DNA of 64,000 nt. Source: Escherichia coli. GTDB taxonomy: Bacteria; Pseudomonadota; Gammaproteobacteria; Enterobacterales; Enterobacteriaceae. Shown here piece after piece: positions 14,660 through 63,940 of this stretch. Each line of letters begins with the position of its first letter. Position 1 is the first letter of the stretch. The DNA is taken from NCBI GenBank assembly GCA_029351405.1, contig GCA_029351405.1_4841.1; one strand, 5' to 3'. Under the pieces are notes generated by a model. That model worked only from the letters and a program-made list of their open reading frames with translations. It ran no database searches and was not told the DNA's origin. A program made the translations under genes and the position numbers.

Positions 14660-15849
14660 AATTTCCTCAATTTGGCTCTGGTGACCTGAGTTTGTTTAAC
14701 GCCGTTGTACTCAGTCAGTTCTTTGACACGACCACGGATGATCATATCGCCCTGCAAGAACTCTGTATCCATATAAGAGGTCTTCCAGGTAATTGTATTG
14801 CCTTCTGCTGTTTTGAAAGTAAACAGGTAACTATCACCATATTCATTGGAGAAGAGGAAGGTGCGCTTGTCGAACCTGACTTGCACTTCCAGCATTTCAC
14901 CGACTTCTCCCACCCATTTGTTCTCCACCTTGCGTTCAGTACGAGGACGATGGATGTAATCGTAATACTTCTTGGCACCCCAGCGGACTGTGTTGTTATC
15001 CTTGATGAGGTGATAGCCGGGTTCACACATGCGTTTCAGGCGAACATTGAACTCATTAGATTCGGACAGCGCACTGATGAAAAGCTTCATATGGTACATT
15101 TCCGACTCTGCATCTTCACGGTATTCGTGTGCCTTGTTTACGAAATACTCTTCATCGGAACCTGCTTTTGGTTTCTGGTGAGACCGGACATAGCCCAGTA
15201 CTTTGTCAAACAGTTCAGACTTGATATCCACGCCTGCCAGCATCACTTGGAAGCATGCGCGCAGGTAACTGTGGGTGTCGGTGAAGCGCTCATTTTGGAC
15301 GCGATATATACCCTCTGGGTCGTCCTCGTCTGGCATGAAGAACTCTTGGATTTCCAGATAGTAAGACATAATCGCGTCAAGCGATTTCTGATGAGGTACA
15401 TAATGATGCATACAGGTGCTACCAATCAGCATCTGGGTATGCGTTTCCTCATTTTCAATCACATACGTGTTCTTGCGACGGATGGCTAGATTGCAATGCT
15501 GACACCAAGAGACGTTCTCTGTCTCGAAGCGACGGATGAAGTCAGGATTGATGTTGTCGGACAGGCGGTTAAGAATAACTTTTGGATATTCGTGATTGAA
15601 CTGACCGATGATCTTCCAGCCACCATAAGAGACGGGGCGGTCAATGCCTTCGCCTTCGAGAGTAACAGGTTTCCACCAGTGAGTAAGGATCTCACCAGTG
15701 AAGTCGCGGGTGTGGGTTTTGAAGGGTTCACCATAAGTCACAGTCGGAAACGGAACACCCAACCTTTCGGCAGTGCGCTCGAGCTTCTTCAGTCGCTCAA
15801 CTACCAACCCTTCATTGTCGATCGGAATATTGAATGTTTTGACGTTCAT
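14656..15849 (-). CDS. hypothetical protein with Cys/His cluster
   Basis: Start taken at Met preceded by GAGG (MNVKT); WCQHC ... CMHHY motif; no confident family. Confidence 0.5.
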   Translation of the reverse strand: MNVKTFNIPIDNEGLVVERLKKLERTAERLGVPFPTVTYGEPFKTHTRDFTGEILTHWWKPVTLEGEGIDRPVSYGGWKIIGQFNHEYPKVILNRLSDNINPDFIRRFETENVSWCQHCNLAIRRKNTYVIENEETHTQMLIGSTCMHHYVPHQKSLDAIMSYYLEIQEFFMPDEDDPEGIYRVQNERFTDTHSYLRACFQVMLAGVDIKSELFDKVLGYVRSHQKPKAGSDEEYFVNKAHEYREDAESEMYHMKLFISALSESNEFNVRLKRMCEPGYHLIKDNNTVRWGAKKYYDYIHRPRTERKVENKWVGEVGEMLEVQVRFDKRTFLFSNEYGDSYLFTFKTAEGNTITWKTSYMDTEFLQGDMIIRGRVKELTEYNGVKQTQVTRAKLRKL

Positions 15850-15932
15850 TTCCAGCCTCATGATGTAGTTGTAACTCTTCAATACAGATTAAATATTAGG
15901 CGATTATTTCTTGAAAGTAAAGTTATTGAAGT

Positions 15933-27881: not shown

Positions 27882-27899
27882 CGGGGTAATTATACCCCG
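27882..27899 (-). promoter_or_regulatory. GC-clamped hairpin (GGGGTATAATTACCCC) in gp32 leader
   Basis: Stem CGGGG/CCCCG, loop carries TATAAT-like sequence; about 70 nt upstream of gp32 ATG. Confidence 0.4.
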
Positions 27900-34361: not shown

Positions 34362-34823
34362 CTACTCCGCCAGGGTGATCACAACCATATTTAAGACTGT
34401 GTCGATAGCTCGGCCTGTTTCCTCTTCATGGAGGGTTTCGGCGCGGAGGTGCACGTCGGTGATGAAATTGTCGATGTGCATTGACGTCAGGTACGGGCGG
34501 TGCTGGCTGACCGGACGGTTGATCAGTACATAGTTACGCAGTGTGTTGAAGTCCTGCTGAGAGCACCCGGTGGTGTCAATGCGCAGGAAGCGTTCATTGT
34601 GGCTTGTCTTCAACTCAGTTACTTTGCCGAGGTAGACCAGAGGTCCATTGCGACCGATACGGAACATAACATCAACAACAGACTTGAAGATTTCGCGTTC
34701 AATCAGTGCGGTGGGTGACCAGCAGATCTCTTCTTTGTCGTCGGCGTACAGGGTGTCGATCACCAGAGGGAGTTGAATGTAACCGAAGTTGTGCAGTGGG
34801 TTGGTGAGTACCTTGTTTGTCAT
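34362..34823 (-). CDS. hypothetical protein
   Basis: Start at Met inside conserved AGGAACTATATCATG cassette; no motif. Confidence 0.45.
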   Translation of the reverse strand: MTNKVLTNPLHNFGYIQLPLVIDTLYADDKEEICWSPTALIEREIFKSVVDVMFRIGRNGPLVYLGKVTELKTSHNERFLRIDTTGCSQQDFNTLRNYVLINRPVSQHRPYLTSMHIDNFITDVHLRAETLHEEETGRAIDTVLNMVVITLAE

Positions 34824-34892
34824 GATATAGTTCCTGCTTTCAATTTGTGGCGAATGCCAATGAATTACTGGGAAGTATAGGGGAGGGCGTTT

Positions 34893-34921
34893 CAAAAGTA
34901 AAGCCCCTCAATGAGGGGCTT
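34893..34921 (-). terminator. rho-independent terminator
   Basis: AAGCCCC-loop-GGGGCTT hairpin followed by TACTTTTGAAA on minus strand, 8 nt after redoxin stop. Confidence 0.5.
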
Positions 34922-40627: not shown

Positions 40628-41116
40628 TTAGGCCAGTTTGCTCACCAGAGCTTCAACTGCGTCGGCGCTCAGTTTACCCATTTTGACGTACTGAGCTTTT
40701 GCTTCGCCGCCAACTGCTTTCACGATGTCGGTGTTGTCGTACCCCTTCTTAGGGAAGACCATCACAGAGAAGGAACCGTTGTTCAGCGGGTTCAGCTGGA
40801 TGCGACCTTTACCGACTACGATGGTGCCGTAAGTTTCGGTGTTTGCTTCGACAATGTGGATGTCGTGACCCAGGTTTTTCAGCATACCAACTTTGTCGGC
40901 AGTCTTAGCAACCACAGCTTTGTCAACCACAACCTGCTCTACCAGGGTGAAGCCGTTAGTCGATTTCACTTTACCGTTCAGCAGGTTCATGAAGGAAGTT
41001 TTGCCACCAGTGAAGCCAGCCGCCTGAGCGATGCGGAACATTTCAACTTTAGCAACTTCGGTGTTCAGTTCGAAAGAGATGGTGCCGTTGGTGATCAGAG
41101 TTTTGGTAGTAGCCAT
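40628..41116 (-). CDS. hypothetical protein (Lys/Val/Ala/Thr-rich, likely highly expressed)
   Basis: 162 aa from Met after GAGGAATTACATC; own promoter, leader hairpin and terminator; no Cys; no family recognised. Confidence 0.55.
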   Translation of the reverse strand: MATTKTLITNGTISFELNTEVAKVEMFRIAQAAGFTGGKTSFMNLLNGKVKSTNGFTLVEQVVVDKAVVAKTADKVGMLKNLGHDIHIVEANTETYGTIVVGKGRIQLNPLNNGSFSVMVFPKKGYDNTDIVKAVGGEAKAQYVKMGKLSADAVEALVSKLA

Positions 41117-41189
41117 GATGTAATTCCTCATAATGTAGTTGGTTCATTTCACTTTTCATTCGGCGGTGTGTTGCCGCCCTATGTGAACT

Positions 41190-41218
41190 ATAATAGTGCA
41201 TCATTATTGAAGAGTAAA
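41190..41218 (-). promoter_or_regulatory. sigma70 / T4-early-type promoter
   Basis: Minus-strand TTTACT -35, 17-nt spacer, TATTAT -10, AT-rich upstream tract; about 70 nt upstream of ATG at 41116. Confidence 0.45.
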
Positions 41219-47443: not shown

Positions 47444-47779
47444 TTATTTTTGAACTTGGGCTACAGACATCGCCCAGAGCGGGAGGGTGTGGGGGTCCAG
47501 GGCTTCCAGTAGATATTCGACGCGCTCTGACATGATACCTTCAGGGAAGTTTACTTCTTCTGGTTCGTTGTTGGCCGTCCAACCCAAGGTCAGTCCTTCA
47601 GCGTGATGGATGATATAAACGAAGTCGCCCGATTCGTAGTCCTTTTCCATCAGGTCGAAGAACGCTTCCATTTCTTCGTCGGAGAAGTAGTAGATGCGAG
47701 GTACGGAGCCGTCAGCAAAGTGTTCAGCACCCTGGAAGGCAAACATGTCATCGGCGGTGAAGTTCTTGAGTTGTGTCAT
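47444..47779 (-). CDS. hypothetical protein
   Basis: Start at Met inside AGGAACTATATCATG cassette; acidic; followed by hairpin and T-tract. Confidence 0.45.
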   Translation of the reverse strand: MTQLKNFTADDMFAFQGAEHFADGSVPRIYYFSDEEMEAFFDLMEKDYESGDFVYIIHHAEGLTLGWTANNEPEEVNFPEGIMSERVEYLLEALDPHTLPLWAMSVAQVQK

Positions 47780-47801
47780 GATATAGTTCCTTCGGTTCAA
47801 A

Positions 47802-48077
47802 TTAACGGCGGAAAGGGCGGTTTGCGTTTTCGCGGTTAGACCAATTCTTTTCAGCCCGAGCGATAGCCGCTGGACTCCATTCGCGCTCCCACTCTTTGTC
47901 TACTTCAGCCTGGTTGGCAGGCTCTACCATTTCAACGCCAGGGAAGTCGCATGACATGATTTCGCGCAGCTGGGCAGCTGGGGCGGTCTGGGCGTGGATC
48001 AATTCTTCGCCGTCGTAAACCTTGGCCATCAGGTATTTCTGACCGTGGCGGATATATGCGTCGAGGATAATTTTCAT
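47802..48077 (-). CDS. hypothetical protein
   Basis: Start at Met inside AGGAACTACACCATG cassette. Confidence 0.45.
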   Translation of the reverse strand: MKIILDAYIRHGQKYLMAKVYDGEELIHAQTAPAAQLREIMSCDFPGVEMVEPANQAEVDKEWEREWSPAAIARAEKNWSNRENANRPFRR

Positions 48078-48192
48078 GGTGTAGTTCCTGCTTTTCAAGT
48101 TGGTGTTGTACTGCTTATGGAATGAAGTATAGGGAAGGATATTGAAGAAGTAAAGGGGCGAAAGCCCCTTTTATTGAATTATTTTTACGGCG

Positions 48193-48822
48193 TCAGCTCA
48201 CAACCGGAATGTGGGATCGAATACCTGCGATGATGTCCTTCAGCTGAGGCTTCCATCCACCCACCAAACGGGGTAGAGCGATAGCACCAGGCTGGACCAA
48301 AATGATGTCGCTGCCTGTGATATTGTGCTGAGGGAACTGGGCGAGGTACTGCTCCATTGTGACACCCTCATCAATCAGAACCGCACCGACGTCAGACGAT
48401 GCGTAGGTTGCACCCAGACCGTCAACGCCCCATGCCAAGATGCCCCAGTCAGGGATGTTGGCTTCAGATGTGATGGTGAATCCAAACACGGTGTTCAGCG
48501 ATGTAAAGGAGTAGACATCGTGGGTGAGGTCATGCACCAGATACCCCTTGGCCAGCATATCGGCAAAGATCGCGTCTGTATCGCCAGCAGCCGGAGTCGG
48601 CACAGTAAACAACAGCTCACCCTCAGGAGGAGCAGGGTATGTTCTGAGGGCATAGAGGCACCATGCGTCAATACACTTCTTGATAAATGCCTCTGGTGCG
48701 ACATAATCGGCAAGGCGAACCGTGCCTGAGTACTCGGATACGATGATGCCTTCCTTCGCGCCCTGTAGAGCGATGAAGACCAAGATATGTTCATATCCGG
48801 TCTGAGATGGAGTGATGTTCAT
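48193..48822 (-). CDS. hypothetical protein
   Basis: Start at internal Met (MNITPSQ) overlapping upstream stop; no motif. Confidence 0.45.
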   Translation of the reverse strand: MNITPSQTGYEHILVFIALQGAKEGIIVSEYSGTVRLADYVAPEAFIKKCIDAWCLYALRTYPAPPEGELLFTVPTPAAGDTDAIFADMLAKGYLVHDLTHDVYSFTSLNTVFGFTITSEANIPDWGILAWGVDGLGATYASSDVGAVLIDEGVTMEQYLAQFPQHNITGSDIILVQPGAIALPRLVGGWKPQLKDIIAGIRSHIPVVS

Positions 48823-49436
48823 TATCTTGTCCTCTTCAGTTTCTCTATCGTGTGCTTGTTCATGGCGATCACCCGAGGATCTACCTCGGAGATGGTCCGG
48901 CCTTTGAAGGACACACATTTCTGAAGATATTTAGCTTTCTTCACGACGTCAGCGGCATAAGCGTTCGATGCAGGATTACGGGCAAAGCCAGCATTGTAAG
49001 AGGAGAGGGATTTGCGGATATTCTGATTGTGATAGGTCAGCCAGAACTGCATCTCATCGAGGGCGGCTTGCGCGGCATATTCTTGGTCGGTCAGCAACTT
49101 TATGGCGACATTGGCATAGCACTTGCGATTCTTACAACCTTCGCGATCACCAACTGTCTTCACCTTGTTCTGAAAGGCTCCCATGTTGGCCGCCTTGAGG
49201 CCGTATCGCATTGACACTACATCTTCGCCAGCGCGGCTCTCACGCCAAGATATGGCGGCCAGAGTGTAGCCAAGATCTTGTGTCTTGCCCACGTGATAGG
49301 CGGTTGCCATCGTATTAAGTTGTTGCTCGGAGAAATTATAAACACATTGGCTTGTATTTTGGGAAGCGTGCACATTCCCGCTGGCAATGGTAAAGGTCAC
49401 GGACAAGGCCATGGCCTTCAACGTTGTCATCGTCAT
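48822..49436 (-). CDS. exported lytic transglycosylase (SLT-domain) with signal peptide
   Basis: N-terminal signal peptide (MTMTTLKAMALSVTFTIASGNVHA); SLT catalytic motif AISWRESRAGEDVVS ... GAFQ and later YNAG motif. Confidence 0.55.
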   Translation of the reverse strand: MTMTTLKAMALSVTFTIASGNVHASQNTSQCVYNFSEQQLNTMATAYHVGKTQDLGYTLAAISWRESRAGEDVVSMRYGLKAANMGAFQNKVKTVGDREGCKNRKCYANVAIKLLTDQEYAAQAALDEMQFWLTYHNQNIRKSLSSYNAGFARNPASNAYAADVVKKAKYLQKCVSFKGRTISEVDPRVIAMNKHTIEKLKRTR

Positions 49437-54535: not shown

Positions 54536-55063
54536 TCAGATACCGATAAATTCATCAAAAGATCCAACAACCTTCTTCACCGAGATATTGTCATTCTCAA
54601 TCAGGAAGTTGCTGTCGTTTTTGGCTGCTGTGGCCCAGTCATCGGCAAGTTCGTTGCCTTCGTGCCCCGCATGACCCTTAACCCATTTTAGTTCAACATC
54701 ACAAATTGAACAAACGAGATCATAGATTCTGAACAGATCTTTGATGAGTTCAACGTTCTTTTCTGGAAACCCCTGATACTCCCACTTCGCTCGCCATTCG
54801 GTGACGCTCTTGATGGCATATTGGCTGTCAGACCAAATTGTTGCCTTTGGTATTCTGCGCTCACCCTTTCCTGAGAATGCCCACAGTAGCTTCAATGCGT
54901 TGGTCACACCCAACAACTCGGCGATATTGTTAGTGGACGGGGGAGGTAGATGACCGAAGAACACCTTCCATTGCATACCCGTTATTGGCCTGATGACAAA
55001 TGCCCATCCTGCGGCCTGGTTGGTCTTCGGGTTAGAACCCCCGTCAGAATAAATTTCTATCAT
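54536..55063 (-). CDS. rnhA: ribonuclease HI (cellular RnhA type)
   Basis: RNase H1 motifs IYSDGGSNP, GWAFV, TNNIAELLG, VKGHAGHEGNELAD; start at internal Met (MIEIYSDGG). Confidence 0.75.
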   Translation of the reverse strand: MIEIYSDGGSNPKTNQAAGWAFVIRPITGMQWKVFFGHLPPPSTNNIAELLGVTNALKLLWAFSGKGERRIPKATIWSDSQYAIKSVTEWRAKWEYQGFPEKNVELIKDLFRIYDLVCSICDVELKWVKGHAGHEGNELADDWATAAKNDSNFLIENDNISVKKVVGSFDEFIGI

Positions 55064-55065
55064 GA

Positions 55066-55073
55066 TATAAATA
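55066..55073 (+). promoter_or_regulatory. T4-type late promoter (TATAAATA)
   Basis: Exact TATAAATA about 35 nt upstream of ATG at 55109; AAGAGGA ribosome-binding site between; adjacent to divergent RNase HI start. Confidence 0.55.
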
Positions 55074-55108
55074 TCCCAAACTGGTTTTATAGAAAGAGGA
55101 ATGAAACT

Positions 55109-58616: not shown

Positions 58617-59279
58617 TTACACCTCCACCGCGTGAGACTTCAGGAGTTCATCAATCTCTTTCTGTCCCATGTATGAGAACGGGGTGCGCTGGTAGAACGC
58701 CCAGAGTACTAACTGGACAACAGCACGGGAACGGGTTTCGGCCGTCATCACCAGGCCACTGAAATGAGGAGACTCAGCTGTCCATTGTATCTCTTCGCCC
58801 AGGTCTTGATTACAGGTCACCGAGATGCGGAACTTGTTGCACAGATTGTCGACTTCTTTGTACGCATCGGTAGACACACGAAGTTGTTCCGCATGTGCCC
58901 ACGGAGTTGTGACGATTCTTTCACCCATCACTTTATCAGAGATAAACCAATCAATACATTCGGTAAACTCACTAAAATGGTCGATACGATAAATGCAGTC
59001 TCCCCCTTCCATAGAACGCATGGCATGATAGCGAGCGTCGATTTCGTTGTTGTGCATCGCGTTGAAGTCGATGAACACGCGACGCGCCAGCACAACATCT
59101 TCTGGTTGAAGTGCCAGGAAATCGTTCAGGCGGCTATAATGGAGGACATTGGAACCGTCGTGGCCACGTGTGCAATATGCGTAATGGCTACCGATACGGG
59201 CGTGGGCAATATAAGACAACGGGGCGAAGAATAATCCGTCAGGATCAGGACCGACGATAATAGAATAAAGTTTTTCCAT
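58617..59279 (-). CDS. hypothetical protein
   Basis: Start at Met inside ACTATATCATG cassette; no motif. Confidence 0.45.
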   Translation of the reverse strand: MEKLYSIIVGPDPDGLFFAPLSYIAHARIGSHYAYCTRGHDGSNVLHYSRLNDFLALQPEDVVLARRVFIDFNAMHNNEIDARYHAMRSMEGGDCIYRIDHFSEFTECIDWFISDKVMGERIVTTPWAHAEQLRVSTDAYKEVDNLCNKFRISVTCNQDLGEEIQWTAESPHFSGLVMTAETRSRAVVQLVLWAFYQRTPFSYMGQKEIDELLKSHAVEV

Positions 59280-59335
59280 GATATAGTCACTCAAATGAAA
59301 GGGCAGCTTTATGATAAGCCGCCCGAGGTTATTGA

Positions 59336-62263: not shown

Positions 62264-62637
62264 AATGTTCCACCCCCGACAGAGATCAAGAACTCTTCTT
62301 GCATGGTCTTGACCGGGTGGTGGTTTCGGATTTCGATCATGAAGCCCCAGCCGCCGTCGGCGACGTTGCCAAAGGTCTTGACGCCAAAGGACTTCGTCCC
62401 GTTGGAGCAGGAATAGATGTCCAGGACGTATGGGCTACCCTGATTGTCGATCCCACGATTCACGTCTTCTGATACGCAGCGCTCAATCATCTTCCCGTTC
62501 TTATACAGAACGAGGTCTTGGCCATACGCCTTGAAAGCATAAACACCGTTGGTAGACACTCCGGTGATGACAGGAGGGGCGGAAACAGCAGCAAAGGAAG
62601 CGCCTAGCAGGGCAACAGCGAGGATTAACTTTTTCAT
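62260..62637 (-). CDS. exported small protein
   Basis: Start at Met in AGAGACTATATCATG cassette; signal peptide MKKLILAVALLGASFAAVSA. Confidence 0.5.
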   Translation of the reverse strand: MKKLILAVALLGASFAAVSAPPVITGVSTNGVYAFKAYGQDLVLYKNGKMIERCVSEDVNRGIDNQGSPYVLDIYSCSNGTKSFGVKTFGNVADGGWGFMIEIRNHHPVKTMQEEFLISVGGGTL

Positions 62638-62655
62638 GATATAGTCTCTTGGTTT

Positions 62656-62677
62656 CAAATGGGCGGGGTATGATTAC
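62656..62677 (-). promoter_or_regulatory. GC-clamped hairpin (GGCGGGG-loop-CCCCGCC) upstream of initiation cassette
   Basis: Perfect 7-bp stem with 8-nt loop immediately 5' of TTGAAA-N3-AGAGACTATATCATG. Confidence 0.4.
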
Positions 62678-62689
62678 CCCGCCGTGGGT

Positions 62690-63196
62690 TTATAGAGTAA
62701 CAAGTGATACGGTAAAAACCATCGTCCCGTCTGTTGCCATTTTTCTTGAAACTGGTATGACGCGAGGCTGGCAGAATATCCATTCTTTCTCCATGGACGC
62801 CAAGTCCAGCATATCCATTTCTGATTCATCGCCTTTGTTCACAAATTTTTCTAGAGAACCATAGACATTAAGCCCCTCCGGGAGTCCGTTTCGATGTTTG
62901 TAACAAATGCGGGCAACAGCTTTGGTTCCGTACGATTTAGAAAATTGTTTGGCCACATGCTTCAGTTCACTGAAGCTAAGACAAGAATCCCATGTCTGGA
63001 ACATGTCGCCTCGTTCAAACATCATCTCTAAACGCGCAACGTCCTCTTTAGGCAGCCCGCGATAAAGTGTGGTCGTCTGTGGTTCGCGTAATTCTTGCAC
63101 CAGATCACGGACGGCAGGGGAAACAGTACCGGGGCGCATTATGTGGGACTTATCATGGACGAGGTAAAATAAATCTTGAATTTGTTGATCGGTCAT
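62690..63196 (-). CDS. hypothetical protein
   Basis: Start at Met in AGGAACTATACCATG cassette; no motif. Confidence 0.45.
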   Translation of the reverse strand: MTDQQIQDLFYLVHDKSHIMRPGTVSPAVRDLVQELREPQTTTLYRGLPKEDVARLEMMFERGDMFQTWDSCLSFSELKHVAKQFSKSYGTKAVARICYKHRNGLPEGLNVYGSLEKFVNKGDESEMDMLDLASMEKEWIFCQPRVIPVSRKMATDGTMVFTVSLVTL

Positions 63197-63218
63197 GGTA
63201 TAGTTCCTGCATTTCAAA

Positions 63219-63241
63219 TAGACGGGGTAATCATACCCCGC
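63219..63241 (-). promoter_or_regulatory. GC-clamped hairpin (GGGGTA-loop-TACCCC) upstream of initiation cassette
   Basis: Same stem as hairpin at 62656..62677 with loop inverted; immediately 5' of the cassette for 62690..63196. Confidence 0.4.
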
Positions 63242-63302
63242 CCAAAGTTATAGAATTAACTGATGTGCTTCAGAAGAGCGAAGAGGATCGCGGCCTTGGC
63301 CT

Positions 63303-63494
63303 TTACCTTTCCCACGATACCTGTCTCGACATCAACTTCTTCAGCAACCCACTCTTTCCCTTCTTGCTGATGATAACGTCACGACGCTGTGCGTAGACTT
63401 CTTTGGTCGCATACACACGACGGAACCCTTTAGCGCGGAGCAAGCCCCAATTGCGATCAATTTCTACTGAGGTTTCTACCATTTTGTTCTTCAT
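63303..63494 (-). CDS. small basic protein
   Basis: 63 aa ORF preceded by TTGAAA-N3-AAGATTATAACATG; a second frame continues past its stop. Confidence 0.35.
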   Translation of the reverse strand: MKNKMVETSVEIDRNWGLLRAKGFRRVYATKEVYAQRRDVIISKKGKSGLLKKLMSRQVSWER

Positions 63495-63585
63495 GTTATA
63501 ATCTTACCTTTCAACCCGGTGAACCCATCGTTCGCCAGTTATTGAATAATAGGACATTCCTTAGAGGAAGTAAACCCCTAAAAGT

Positions 63586-63610
63586 AAAAATCCCCAACGT
63601 TTGTTGGGGA
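63586..63610 (-). terminator. rho-independent terminator
   Basis: TCCCCAAC-loop-GTTGGGGA hairpin followed by TTTTTACTTTT on minus strand, just after ACP-like gene stop. Confidence 0.5.
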
Positions 63611-63616
63611 CTTCTG

Positions 63617-63940
63617 TTATTTGCGCAGGGCAACTACGAGTTCAGCGAGTTCACCCATGGTCGGGTCATCACCTTTACTGCCCAGCCAACCATCGTCGAT
63701 TTCGACCTGAAACTCTTCTTCGAGGTCCATTACAATTTCGATAGCGTCCAGTTCATCACCGCCGAGGTCTTTCTTGGTACGGAGGCCAGCCAGCTTGTCC
63801 AGGGCGTCCTCGTTCTGAGATGCCACGTCGTCCAGCAATTTGCGCTTGTCATCGTCACGCCACAGATCCAAGTTCAGATTGTCAGTGGCGTACTGAGCCA
63901 GATGACGCATGACTTCAACATATGTTGGTTTGCTGCTCAT
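63617..63940 (-). CDS. acyl carrier protein-like protein
   Basis: C-terminal half matches ACP helix II region (LGGDELDAIEIVMDLEEEFQVEIDD) but has Glu where the phosphopantetheine-attachment Ser of DSL is expected. Confidence 0.55.
   Translation of the reverse strand: MSSKPTYVEVMRHLAQYATDNLNLDLWRDDDKRKLLDDVASQNEDALDKLAGLRTKKDLGGDELDAIEIVMDLEEEFQVEIDDGWLGSKGDDPTMGELAELVVALRK

What the first reader, a model, noticed from the sequence alone, without database searches (positions are those of the whole stretch)
62630..63245. Recurrent initiation cassette TTGAAA-N3-AGGAACTATATCATG, twice preceded by GGGGTA...TACCCC hairpins
On the minus strand, at least eight genes start inside a near-identical cassette. 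Approximate plus-strand positions of the start codons are 34823, 47779, 48077, 59279, 62637 and 63196, with variants at 41116, 63494 and 15870. Most carry TTGAAA, a short spacer, AGGA(A/G)C and (T/C)ATA(T/C)C immediately before ATG. For 62637 and 63196 a GC-clamped hairpin (GGCGGGG-loop-CCCCGCC) sits directly 5' of the cassette. The genes are mostly small and uncharacterised, and some encode exported proteins. The conservation reaches beyond the Shine-Dalgarno into spacer and flank, which suggests a shared regulator, co-transcriptional processing, or recent duplication of a gene-start module. The RNase HI start (about 55063) carries a related TTTATATCATG context.
Basis: seen in the sequence. 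Interest (0 to 1): 0.6.

Follow-up and report, generated by a model that had tools for sequence, protein, structure and literature searches.

The report
Reusable gene-start module in a phage
The repeated sequence is the ribosome-binding end of a small expression module (hairpin, sometimes an early promoter, leader, start codon) that this T4-related phage family reuses in front of many small early genes. Related phages have gained, lost or swapped genes exactly at these modules, so it is a real but largely familiar kind of feature.

Summary
The window is an Agtrevirus-like Ackermannviridae phage, 96% identical to Escherichia phage AV101. TTGAAA-N3-AGGAAC-TATATC-ATG occurs five times within 3 mismatches where 0 are expected, with looser variants elsewhere. 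Two copies follow GGCGGGGTA-loop-TACCCCGCC hairpins and form a 50-nt direct repeat.

The cassette is the 3' end of a larger module. In three strict or near-strict copies the module is a terminator stem-loop, a T4-type early promoter (TTTACT-N17-TATACT) and a leader of about 40 nt. In others it is a GC hairpin plus ATTTGAAA with no promoter. This matches the PeSL cassettes (promoter-early stem-loops) described for T4-like phages.

Relatives show insertions, deletions and replacements whose breakpoints fall inside the cassettes. The same module precedes at least ten different genes across relatives.

The cassette is AU-rich and poorly structured, with a modest Shine-Dalgarno sequence, which points to a standard open translation-initiation region. 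The homologues of T4's RegA-controlled genes lack it. No Rfam family matches. I found no report of such modules in Ackermannviridae.

Verdict: a real feature and a new member of a known kind, of moderate interest.

The parts
62635..62660 (-). Cassette copy ATTTGAAACCAAGAGACTATATCATG. Start codon at 62637-62635 of a 125-aa protein with a signal-peptide-like N-terminus (MKKLILAVALLGASFAAVSA).
62662..62683 (-). GC-clamped hairpin GGCGGGGTA-ATCA-TACCCCGCC directly 5' of the cassette. In this phage the 4-nt loop is inverted relative to nearly all relatives, which have TGAT.
   Evidence: (-19.6 kcal/mol, z -4.9)
63194..63219 (-). Cassette copy ATTTGAAATGCAGGAACTATACCATG. Start codon at 63196-63194 of a 168-aa protein.
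63221..63243 (-). Hairpin GGGCGGGGTA-TGAT-TACCCCGTC directly 5' of the cassette. Together with the cassette it is one copy of the 50-nt direct repeat.
62690..63196 (-). Swappable gene between the two hairpin-cassette repeats: 168 aa, weak match to PHROG 832 'RNA polymerase ADP-ribosylase'. It is absent in Maynard, A221 and T751. P46FS4, Kamild and Vi01 carry a 151-aa DenV-like gene in its place.
59277..59296 (-). Cassette variant ATTTGAGTGACTATATCATG, with no AGGA. Start of a 220-aa protein.
59301..59324 (-). Hairpin GGGCGGCTT-ATCATA-AAGCTGCCC followed by TTTCATTTGA. It passes the simple terminator rule.
47777..47802 (-). Cassette copy with no promoter or hairpin. It lies directly after the TAA stop of the upstream 91-aa gene. 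Start of a 111-aa protein (MTQLKN).
47802..48077 (-). 91-aa gene (MKIILD) bounded by two cassette copies. It is absent in AV101, Kamild and T751, where the upstream promoter-leader-cassette is fused directly to MTQLKN.
48075..48099 (-). Cassette copy CTTGAAAAGCAGGAACTACACCATG at the end of a promoter-leader module.
48126..48171 (-). Terminator-like stem-loop AAAGGGGCtttcGCCCCTTT (48152-48171) overlapping a T4-type early promoter TTTACT-N17-TATACT (48126-48154).
34821..34844 (-). Cassette copy ATTGAAAGCAGGAACTATATCATG. Start of a 153-aa protein.
34874..34921 (-). Stem-loop AAGCCCCTCattGAGGGGCTT (34901-34921) plus early promoter TTTACT-N17-TATACT (34874-34902) feeding the 34823 cassette.
63492..63515 (-). 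Loose variant GTTGAAAGGTAAGATTATAACATG.
63546..63610 (-). Stem-loop TCCCCAACaaacGTTGGGGA (63591-63610) and promoter TTTACT-N17-TATTAT (63546-63574). This promoter heads the operon that contains both hairpin-cassette genes.
41114..41218 (-). Variant module: promoter TTTACT-N17-TATTAT (41190-41218), leader hairpin GGGCGGcaacacaCCGCC (41162-41179) and ATTATGAGGAATTACATCATG (41114-41134).
15859..15921 (-). Variant module: promoter TTTACT-N17-TAATAT (15893-15921) and ATTGAAGAGTTACAACTACATCATG (15859-15883). Relatives annotate the next in-frame ATG, at 15849, as the start.
55061..55080 (-). RNase H start context TTTGGGATATTTATATCATG. It shares only the TATATC-ATG spacer.

Best explanation
The cassette is the translation-initiation end of a family-wide, reusable early-gene expression module of Ackermannviridae phages.

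Module forms
- The full module reads: AT-rich tract with TTCAATAA, GC stem-loop that terminates the upstream unit, T4-type sigma-70 early promoter (TTTACT-N17-TATACT), a leader of about 40 nt, (A)TTGAAA-N2-4-AGGAAC-TATATC-ATG, and often ACN as the second codon.
- Shortened forms keep only a GC hairpin plus (C/T)ATTTGAAA plus the ribosome-binding part (62637, 63196, 59279), or only the ribosome-binding part after the upstream stop codon (47779).

Function at the RNA level (inferred)
The cassette gives each small early gene the same open, AU-rich initiation region with little structure and a modest AGGA Shine-Dalgarno about 8 nt from the AUG. The hairpin is an intercistronic mRNA structure. It may act as a weak terminator, an insulator or a stabiliser.

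Function at the DNA level (partly shown, partly inferred)
The copies are short patches of homology. The outcomes are shown: deletions, insertions and replacements whose junctions lie inside the repeats. The mechanism is inferred: the phage's T4-like recombination machinery crosses over between copies, so whole genes are removed, added or exchanged precisely at the ATG without damaging expression of their neighbours.

This is how the PeSL cassettes of T4-like phages are proposed to work.
For: Identity: the window is an Aglimvirinae/Agtrevirus phage.

Module anatomy
- In AV101 four cassette genes share stem-loop + TTTACT-N17-TATACT + leader, with the TATACTTC -10 motif beginning 54-56 nt upstream of the ATG.
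- 7 of 9 intergenic T4-type promoters of AV101 feed a cassette-like initiation region, whereas ATC-ATG occurs in only 32 of 199 genes overall. In the window the figure is 5 of 7 such promoters.
- The 111-nt module at 48075-48185 is found in 272 of 273 matching phage records, all Ackermannviridae apart from one spurious partial hit, with 2-3 copies per genome.

Gene swapping at the cassettes
- AV101, Kamild and T751 lack the 91-aa gene at 47802-48077. In AV101 and Kamild the blastn chain shows both flanks overlapping on one 28-nt copy. In all three relatives the promoter-leader-cassette runs straight into MTQLKN.
- A221, Maynard and T751 lack the 168-aa gene. In A221 the flanks overlap on one 50-nt copy, and A221 and Maynard show hybrid junction sequences.
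- P46FS4, Kamild and Vi01 carry a DenV-like gene in the same slot behind the same hairpin-cassette.
- CECAV_050 has an extra ORF flanked by a duplicated stem-loop + promoter + leader.
- The same promoter-leader-cassette precedes six different N-termini. The hairpin-cassette precedes four.
- Breakpoints lie near 6 of 7 cassette starts against 11 of 31 other starts (Fisher p = 0.03).

Open initiation region
- The cassette is unpaired in all folds.
- The mean folding energy of -25..+15 is -1.95 kcal/mol for cassette genes and -3.91 for the other 188 genes (p = 0.002). Shine-Dalgarno pairing is slightly weaker.

Hairpin as an RNA structure
- 99.3% of cells are paired across 16 variants, with one compensatory G-C to A-U change and 11 G.U cells that would be mismatches on the other strand.

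Conservation
- Between genera the cassette is 74-96% identical, where the leader can fall to 43%.

Literature
- PeSL definition and recombination evidence come from PMC2839356 and PMC4122927.
Against: - No transcript, ribosome or recombination data exist for this phage family. Promoter use, hairpin function and translation strength are therefore inferred.
- The two copies named in the finding (62637, 63196) have no recognisable -35/-10 promoter between hairpin and start. They do not meet the strict PeSL definition.
- The association with breakpoints is only modestly significant, because the whole region is plastic.
- Viable insertions and deletions must respect gene boundaries anyway.
- The role of the conserved TTGAAA is unexplained. 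In some copies its TGA serves as the stop codon of the upstream gene.
- Microhomology at the 47779/48077 junction is short: 8-16 identical nt.
Confidence: 0.7

Rival explanations
1. Convergent optimal ribosome-binding site. The cassette is simply this phage's preferred initiation sequence, selected independently at each gene. The copies would not be related by descent or recombination, and breakpoints would fall there only because genes begin there.
For: - TA[TC]ATC-ATG occurs in 13 of 199 genes in otherwise unrelated contexts, including late genes.
- Cassette initiation regions are significantly less structured.
- The second codon is ACN in 4 of 11 cassette genes against 12 of 188 others, which suggests selection for expression.
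Against: - Similarity extends over 28-111 nt, including leader positions with no obvious role.
- Junctions in relatives are hybrids of two copies with overlapping homology of 28 and 50 nt.
- Cassette variants move between loci. For example, CECAV_050 and L010 carry TGAAGGAAATACATC at the MTDQQI gene, whereas the window has TGCAGGAACTATACC.
Confidence: 0.15
2. Operator for a phage RNA-binding regulator. A protein such as the RegA translational-repressor homologue would bind the conserved spacer and AUG region and shut off a set of early accessory genes together.
For: - A RegA homologue is annotated next to the clamp-loader genes in AV101, CECAV_050 and T751.
- Conservation covers the Shine-Dalgarno-to-AUG spacer and reaches +4/+5. 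From my own knowledge, this is where T4 RegA binds AU-rich initiation regions.
Against: - The homologues of T4's RegA-controlled genes (gp45, gp44, gp62, regA, rIIB) show no cassette.
- No binding data exist.
- The motif is tied to module copies and promoter proximity, not to a functional class of genes.
Confidence: 0.08
3. The hairpins are the functional core. They could be weak internal promoters with the -10 box (TATGAT) in the loop, or RNA processing or termination sites. Under this reading the cassette is just what lies downstream.
For: - The hairpin sequence GGGGTATGATTACCCC differs by 1 nt from GGGGTATAATTACCCC upstream of the ssb gene. GTTAATTC lies upstream of both hairpins, 15 nt before the TATAAT at the ssb site and 17 nt before the TATGAT at 63196.
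- TATAAT sits inside hairpins at 6 of 31 sites against 1.9 expected.
- The loop TATNAT is kept even in distant T751 and Vi01.
- Hairpin followed by ATTTGAA recurs 5 times in AV101 intergenic DNA, including upstream of gp44.
Against: - The loop at 62637 is inverted in this phage and in L010. That destroys the sense-strand -10 box with no other change.
- No acceptable -35 lies at 16-18 nt, and the promoter scan does not call these sites.
- The U-tract is too poor for the terminator rule.
- Cassettes at 34823, 48077 and 47779 have no such hairpin.
Confidence: 0.07

Closest known systems
PeSL (promoter-early stem-loop) regulatory cassettes of T4-like phages RB49/phi1, T4/PST and KVP40/nt-1 (Arbiol 2010, PMC2839356; Comeau 2014, PMC4122927)
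   Same: - A composite repeated element: AT-rich tract, GGGG...CCCC-type stem-loop, TTTACW-N17-TAYWAT early promoter, Shine-Dalgarno and start codon.
- Many copies in front of small genes of unknown function in plastic regions.
- Insertions, deletions and replacements between close relatives have crossovers inside the element, including between the -10 box and the ATG.
- 'Half' or degraded copies also exist.
   Different: - The host family is Ackermannviridae, not Straboviridae. It has its own consensus, including TTCAATAA tracts and the TTGAAA-N3-AGGAAC-TATATC leader end.
- The most conserved and most recombination-prone part here is the ribosome-binding end.
- Several copies have a hairpin but no promoter.
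- Mini-circle formation has not been tested.
T4 early promoter and ribosome-binding-site consensus regions (Liebig and Rueger 1989, cited in PMC3184105)
   Same: Early genes of a T4-related phage share extended consensus sequences that run from the promoter through the ribosome-binding site.
   Different: I know that paper only by citation and from memory. The cassette here is longer and more exact than a consensus, and it is shared as a block between paralogous sites.
T4 RegA translational operators
   Same: Recurrent AU-rich sequence between the Shine-Dalgarno and the AUG on several early mRNAs, and a RegA homologue is encoded by the phage.
   Different: The homologues of T4's RegA targets lack the cassette. 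Binding has not been tested.
Strong synthetic or phage leaders such as the T7 gene 10 leader (from memory)
   Same: An AU-rich unstructured leader, a Shine-Dalgarno followed by an ATATAC-like spacer, and high predicted accessibility.
   Different: The cassette shares no sequence with the epsilon enhancer. It has a weaker Shine-Dalgarno (AGGA), and any enhancer activity of TTGAAA is unknown.

Membership tests
PeSL cassette | Stem-loop (terminator) immediately upstream of a sigma-70-like early promoter with about 17-nt spacing | tested here: met
   Met for the modules at 34874-34921, 48126-48171, 63546-63610 and 15893-15921, and for four AV101 copies.
PeSL cassette | The same promoter requirement, applied to the two copies named in the finding (62637, 63196) | tested here: not met
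   There is no -35/-10 pair between the hairpin and the ATG. Only a TATGAT lies inside the hairpin loop, and it is inverted at 62637. The promoter scan does not call either site. These copies resemble the 'degraded' PeSLs of PMC4122927.
PeSL cassette | Shine-Dalgarno and start codon of the downstream gene at the 3' end of the element | tested here: met
PeSL cassette | Multiple conserved copies, preferentially before small genes of unknown function in variable regions | tested here: met
   About 11 copies in AV101 and 5 strict copies plus about 4 loose ones in the window. The products have no Pfam family and fall mostly in PHROGs of unknown function.
PeSL cassette | Insertions, deletions and replacements between close relatives, with the crossover inside the element | tested here: met
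PeSL cassette | Formation of excised mini-circles during infection | not testable with these tools
   Needs inverse PCR on infected cells.
RegA translational operator | Present on the initiation regions of the repressor's known target genes (clamp, clamp loader, regA, rIIB) | tested here: not met
RegA translational operator | Specific binding by the RegA protein | not testable with these tools
   Needs a gel shift or toeprinting.
Intrinsic (rho-independent) terminator | GC-rich stem-loop followed by a run of at least 5 T in 8 nt | tested here: not met
   The hairpins at 62662-62683 and 63221-63243 are not called. 59301-59324 is called.
Any curated RNA family (Rfam 15) | Covariance-model match | tested here: not met
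   No match at gathering score in the whole window, and none at E<=1 in 62400-63700.

The most novel reading that the evidence does not exclude
The hairpin-plus-cassette units could be more than passive homology. They might be recognition sites for a dedicated phage factor, either a structure-specific DNA recombination or nicking protein or a sequence-specific RNA-binding regulator. Ackermannviridae would then run an integron-like, site-directed gene-cassette exchange, or a co-regulated set of accessory early genes.

Three observations fit this but do not require it. The loop sequence TATGAT is well conserved across genera. Whole-loop inversions have occurred at two different hairpins. In this phage, a perfect 22-nt inverted repeat flanks the swappable gene.
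Probability: 0.07. Interest if true: 0.75.

Novelty: new member of a known kind. Interest (0 to 1): 0.4.

Why it matters
Ackermannviridae (ViI-like phages) are widely used for biocontrol and engineering, yet their early transcription signals are essentially unmapped. The CBA120 genome paper states that early promoters could not be identified by informatics (PMC3184105), and a 2024 family review does not mention promoters at all.

This analysis offers three things:
- a concrete consensus for early promoters and their leaders;
- an explanation of why small accessory genes come and go at fixed slots, for example an ADP-ribosyltransferase-like gene alternating with a DenV-like gene;
- natural 'landing pads', where foreign genes could be inserted with a ready-made promoter, ribosome-binding site and insulator.

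It also extends the PeSL idea beyond the T4-like family in which it was described.

Tried and rejected
- An exact scan of IMG/VR for AGGAACTATATCATG returned at least 120 mostly unrelated contigs. A 15-mer is too short for that collection, so the scan says nothing about distribution. It did supply extra Ackermannviridae copies, which I used.
- The search for related loci with the 125-aa protein gave only 5 loci. I used GenBank phage records instead.
- RegB idea: one relative annotates the 204-aa protein at window 48822-49436 as 'RegB family'. That protein has a signal-peptide-like N-terminus and a borderline SLT transglycosylase match, so I dropped it. The cassette also lacks GGAG.
- Sigma-70 promoter reading of TTGAAA: the spacing to TATATC is 9 nt, not 16-18, so I rejected it.
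- Late promoter reading of TATATC: the late-type motif in this phage looks like TAAATA, and a promoter there would leave no leader for the conserved AGGA.
- Rfam and a PDB sequence search for the 168-aa protein found nothing.
- Literature searches for transcriptomes or mapped promoters of this family found nothing useful.
Full report
**What the window is.** The 4 kb around the finding is 96% identical to Escherichia phage AV101 and related Agtrevirus phages (family Ackermannviridae). It matches 277 records of that family at lower identity. I transferred gene starts from the AV101 annotation. Nearly all genes between 11 kb and 64 kb run on the minus strand.

**Checking the observation.** TTGAAANNNAGGAACTATATCATG with up to three mismatches occurs five times, always on the minus strand and always ending in an annotated or obvious start codon. 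The sites are 34821-34844, 47777-47800, 48075-48098, 62635-62658 and 63194-63217. No shuffle gave any hit.

GGGGTA-N4-TACCCC occurs at 62665-62680 and 63224-63239, and also at 27883-27898. The hairpin plus cassette is a 50-nt direct repeat, 62634-62683 and 63193-63242. The 47779 and 48077 copies form a 28-nt direct repeat.

The copy at 59279 keeps TTTGAG..GACTATATCATG behind a similar hairpin but has lost AGGA. 55063 shares only TATATCATG.

In the complete AV101 genome, TA[TC]ATC precedes the start codon in 13 of 199 genes, against 0.1-1.6 expected. ATC-ATG occurs in 32 of 199, and TGAAA peaks at -20/-19. The motif is therefore real and is not a by-product of Shine-Dalgarno spacing.

**What the cassette belongs to.** Extending the comparison upstream showed that the cassette is the last 24 nt of a longer conserved unit. 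Four AV101 copies, two of them inside the window (34823 and 48077), read as follows:
- an AT-rich tract with TTCAATAA;
- a GC stem-loop whose T-run overlaps the -35 box;
- TTTACT, a 17-nt spacer (often TCTTCAATA...), then TATACT;
- a leader of about 40 nt;
- TTGAAA-N2-4-AGGAAC-TATATC-ATG.

The TATACTTC -10 motif begins 54-56 nt upstream of the ATG. This is the T4-type early promoter form (TTTACW-N17-TAYWAT) quoted for T4/PST in PMC4122927.

Seven of nine such intergenic promoters in AV101, and five of seven in the window, feed a cassette or a variant of it. The 111-nt module at 48075-48185 occurs in essentially every Ackermannviridae genome in the phage collection, with 2-3 copies each, and in no other family.

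The two copies in the finding are a shorter form. They have a GC hairpin, then (C/T)ATTTGAAA, then the ribosome-binding part, with no promoter. They lie inside an operon that starts at the 63546-63574 promoter. The 47779 copy has neither promoter nor hairpin and follows the stop codon of the preceding gene.

**Gene swapping at the cassettes.** I compared the window with AV101, CECAV_050, A221, P46FS4 (all Agtrevirus-like), Kamild (Limestonevirus), Vi01 and Maynard (Kuttervirus) and T751 (Taipeivirus). The comparison gave repeated events whose junctions lie in the modules:
- The 91-aa gene at 47802-48077 is missing in AV101, Kamild and T751. In all three the promoter-leader-cassette is joined directly to the MTQLKN gene. 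In the AV101 and Kamild blastn chains the two flanks overlap on a single 28-nt copy.
- In P46FS4 the same module drives a different 123-aa gene. In Vi01 it drives the 91-aa gene alone.
- The 168-aa gene at 62690-63196 is missing in Maynard, A221 and T751. In A221 the flanks overlap on a single 50-nt copy. In Maynard and A221 the junction sequence is a hybrid of the left flank of the 63196 copy and the right part of the 62637 copy.
- In P46FS4, Kamild and Vi01 the same hairpin-cassette precedes a 151-aa DenV-like gene instead.
- CECAV_050 carries an extra ORF upstream of the 63494 homologue, flanked by a duplicated stem-loop, promoter and leader.
- P46FS4 has an insertion exactly at the 63494 ATG.

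Pooling all loci, one promoter-leader-cassette type precedes six unrelated N-termini, and the hairpin-cassette precedes four. Breakpoints fall within 30-60 nt of 6 of 7 cassette starts and 11 of 31 other starts (p = 0.03). That is modest, because the whole region is plastic. The overlapping homology and the hybrid junctions are the stronger argument.

Cassette variants also move between loci. For example, the MTDQQI gene carries TGAAGGAAATACATC in CECAV_050 and L010.

**How it probably works on RNA.**
- In all folds the cassette is single-stranded, and the promoter-type leaders are less structured than shuffled controls.
- Across AV101 the -25..+15 region of cassette genes folds at -1.95 kcal/mol on average, against -3.91 for the other genes (p = 0.002).
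- Predicted pairing to the 16S tail is slightly weaker.
- ACN is over-represented as the second codon, 4 of 11 against 12 of 188.

I read this as a standard, open, AU-rich initiation region that relies on accessibility more than on a strong Shine-Dalgarno. This step is inferred, not shown.

**The hairpins.** They are stable: -19.6 kcal/mol with z = -4.9 at 62637, and -19.4 kcal/mol with z = -2.2 at 63196. In 16 distinct variants, 99.3% of positions stay paired. There is one compensatory G-C to A-U change and 11 G.U pairs that would be mismatches on the opposite strand. This favours a structure in the mRNA.

They fail a simple terminator rule because the tail (CAUUUGAAA) has few U residues. They are followed by genes that have no promoter of their own, so they cannot be efficient terminators. 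Whether they attenuate, insulate or stabilise is open.

Hairpin followed by ATTTGAA recurs elsewhere, including upstream of the clamp-loader gene. ATTTGAAA may therefore belong to the hairpin unit as much as to the ribosome-binding unit. In some copies the TGA of TTGAAA is the stop codon of the upstream gene.

**Rivals.**
- A RegA-type operator is attractive because the family encodes a RegA homologue. However, the homologues of T4's RegA targets lack the cassette.
- A promoter with its -10 box in the hairpin loop is suggested by the near-identical GGGGTATAATTACCCC element upstream of the ssb gene and by an excess of TATAAT inside hairpins. Against this, the 62637 loop is inverted in this phage, which removes the box, and no usable -35 is present.
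- Pure convergence on an optimal ribosome-binding site cannot explain block similarity over 28-111 nt or the hybrid junctions.
- No Rfam family matches.

**Comparison with what is known.** The closest described system is the PeSL cassette of T4-like phages. A PeSL has an AT-rich tract, a GGGG...CCCC stem-loop, an early promoter, a Shine-Dalgarno and a start codon. Copies are repeated in plastic regions, with crossovers mapped between the -10 box and the ATG, and degraded half-copies also exist.

The promoter-type modules here meet every sequence-level criterion. The two copies in the finding fail the promoter criterion and correspond to half-elements. Mini-circle formation could not be tested.

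No paper in the library links PeSLs with Ackermannviridae. The family's genome papers report only a handful of tentative sigma-70 promoters and state that early promoters could not be found. A 2024 review does not discuss them.

**Verdict.** The finding is a real, statistically solid feature. It is best described as the Ackermannviridae counterpart of PeSL-type portable expression modules, with the ribosome-binding cassette as the best-conserved part and the one where gene-swap junctions fall. It is a new member of a known kind. It is useful for annotation and engineering and moderately interesting for phage genome evolution, but not a new mechanism.

Noticed in passing
window 62660-62681 and 63223-63244: The 4-nt loop of the 62637 hairpin is inverted in this phage (ATCA instead of TGAT, shared only with IMG/VR contig L010). 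As a result the two hairpins are a perfect 22-nt inverted repeat 541 nt apart, flanking the swappable 168-aa gene. A second loop inversion (AACAC versus GTGTT) occurs in the 41116 leader hairpin of Dickeya phage Kamild.
   Followed up: partly
window 62690-63196 (-): The 168-aa product matches PHROG 832 'RNA polymerase ADP-ribosylase' (E = 2.8e-15). It has no Pfam hit and no PDB sequence hit. The CBA120 paper states that ViI-like phages lack Alt/ModA homologues. The slot alternately holds this gene, a DenV-like glycosylase, or nothing.
   Followed up: partly
window 63303-63494 (-), around 63357: The small gene after the 63546-63574 promoter is 63 aa here but 79 aa in AV101, Maynard and others. 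The window lacks one base (AAGAAGGG-AAAGAG versus AAGAAGGGCAAAGAG). This is either a frameshift or a sequencing error.
   Followed up: no
window-wide, e.g. 48171-48178, 63539-63546, 41204-41211, 15923-15930: The 8-mer TTCAATAA occurs 15 times against about 2 expected, 12 of them on the minus strand. It is mostly inside or beside the early promoter modules (upstream tract, spacer, or just after the -10 box). It could be an UP-like element or a factor site.
   Followed up: partly
window 27883-27898, 22915, 16680, 13932 (-): TATAAT boxes sit in the loops of short GC hairpins upstream of early or middle genes (ssb and others), at 6 of 31 TATAAT sites against 1.9 expected. GGGGTATAATTACCCC upstream of ssb is 1 nt from the hairpins of the finding, and GTTAATTC lies upstream of both.
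   Followed up: partly
window 5723/5774, 25778/25832, 29531, 40442, 43595, 44258: Upstream of structural and other presumably late genes there are TAAATA / TATAAATA motifs. They often sit inside palindromes between divergent genes. These are likely the gp55-type late promoters, which the CBA120 paper described as not yet identified.
   Followed up: no
window 48822-49436 (-): The 204-aa protein that one relative (Kamild) annotates as 'RegB family endoribonuclease' has a signal-peptide-like N-terminus and a borderline SLT transglycosylase match. The RegB label looks doubtful.
   Followed up: partly
AV101 109123 (upstream of the gp44 homologue), outside the window: TATAAT is followed by the hairpin GGGCGGGGgcgttCCCCGCC and then TATTTGAAATG. 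This places a hairpin at the predicted 5' end of the clamp-loader transcript, and similar promoter-proximal hairpins occur at 41162-41179 and at AV101 103720. They may be 5' stabilisers.
   Followed up: no
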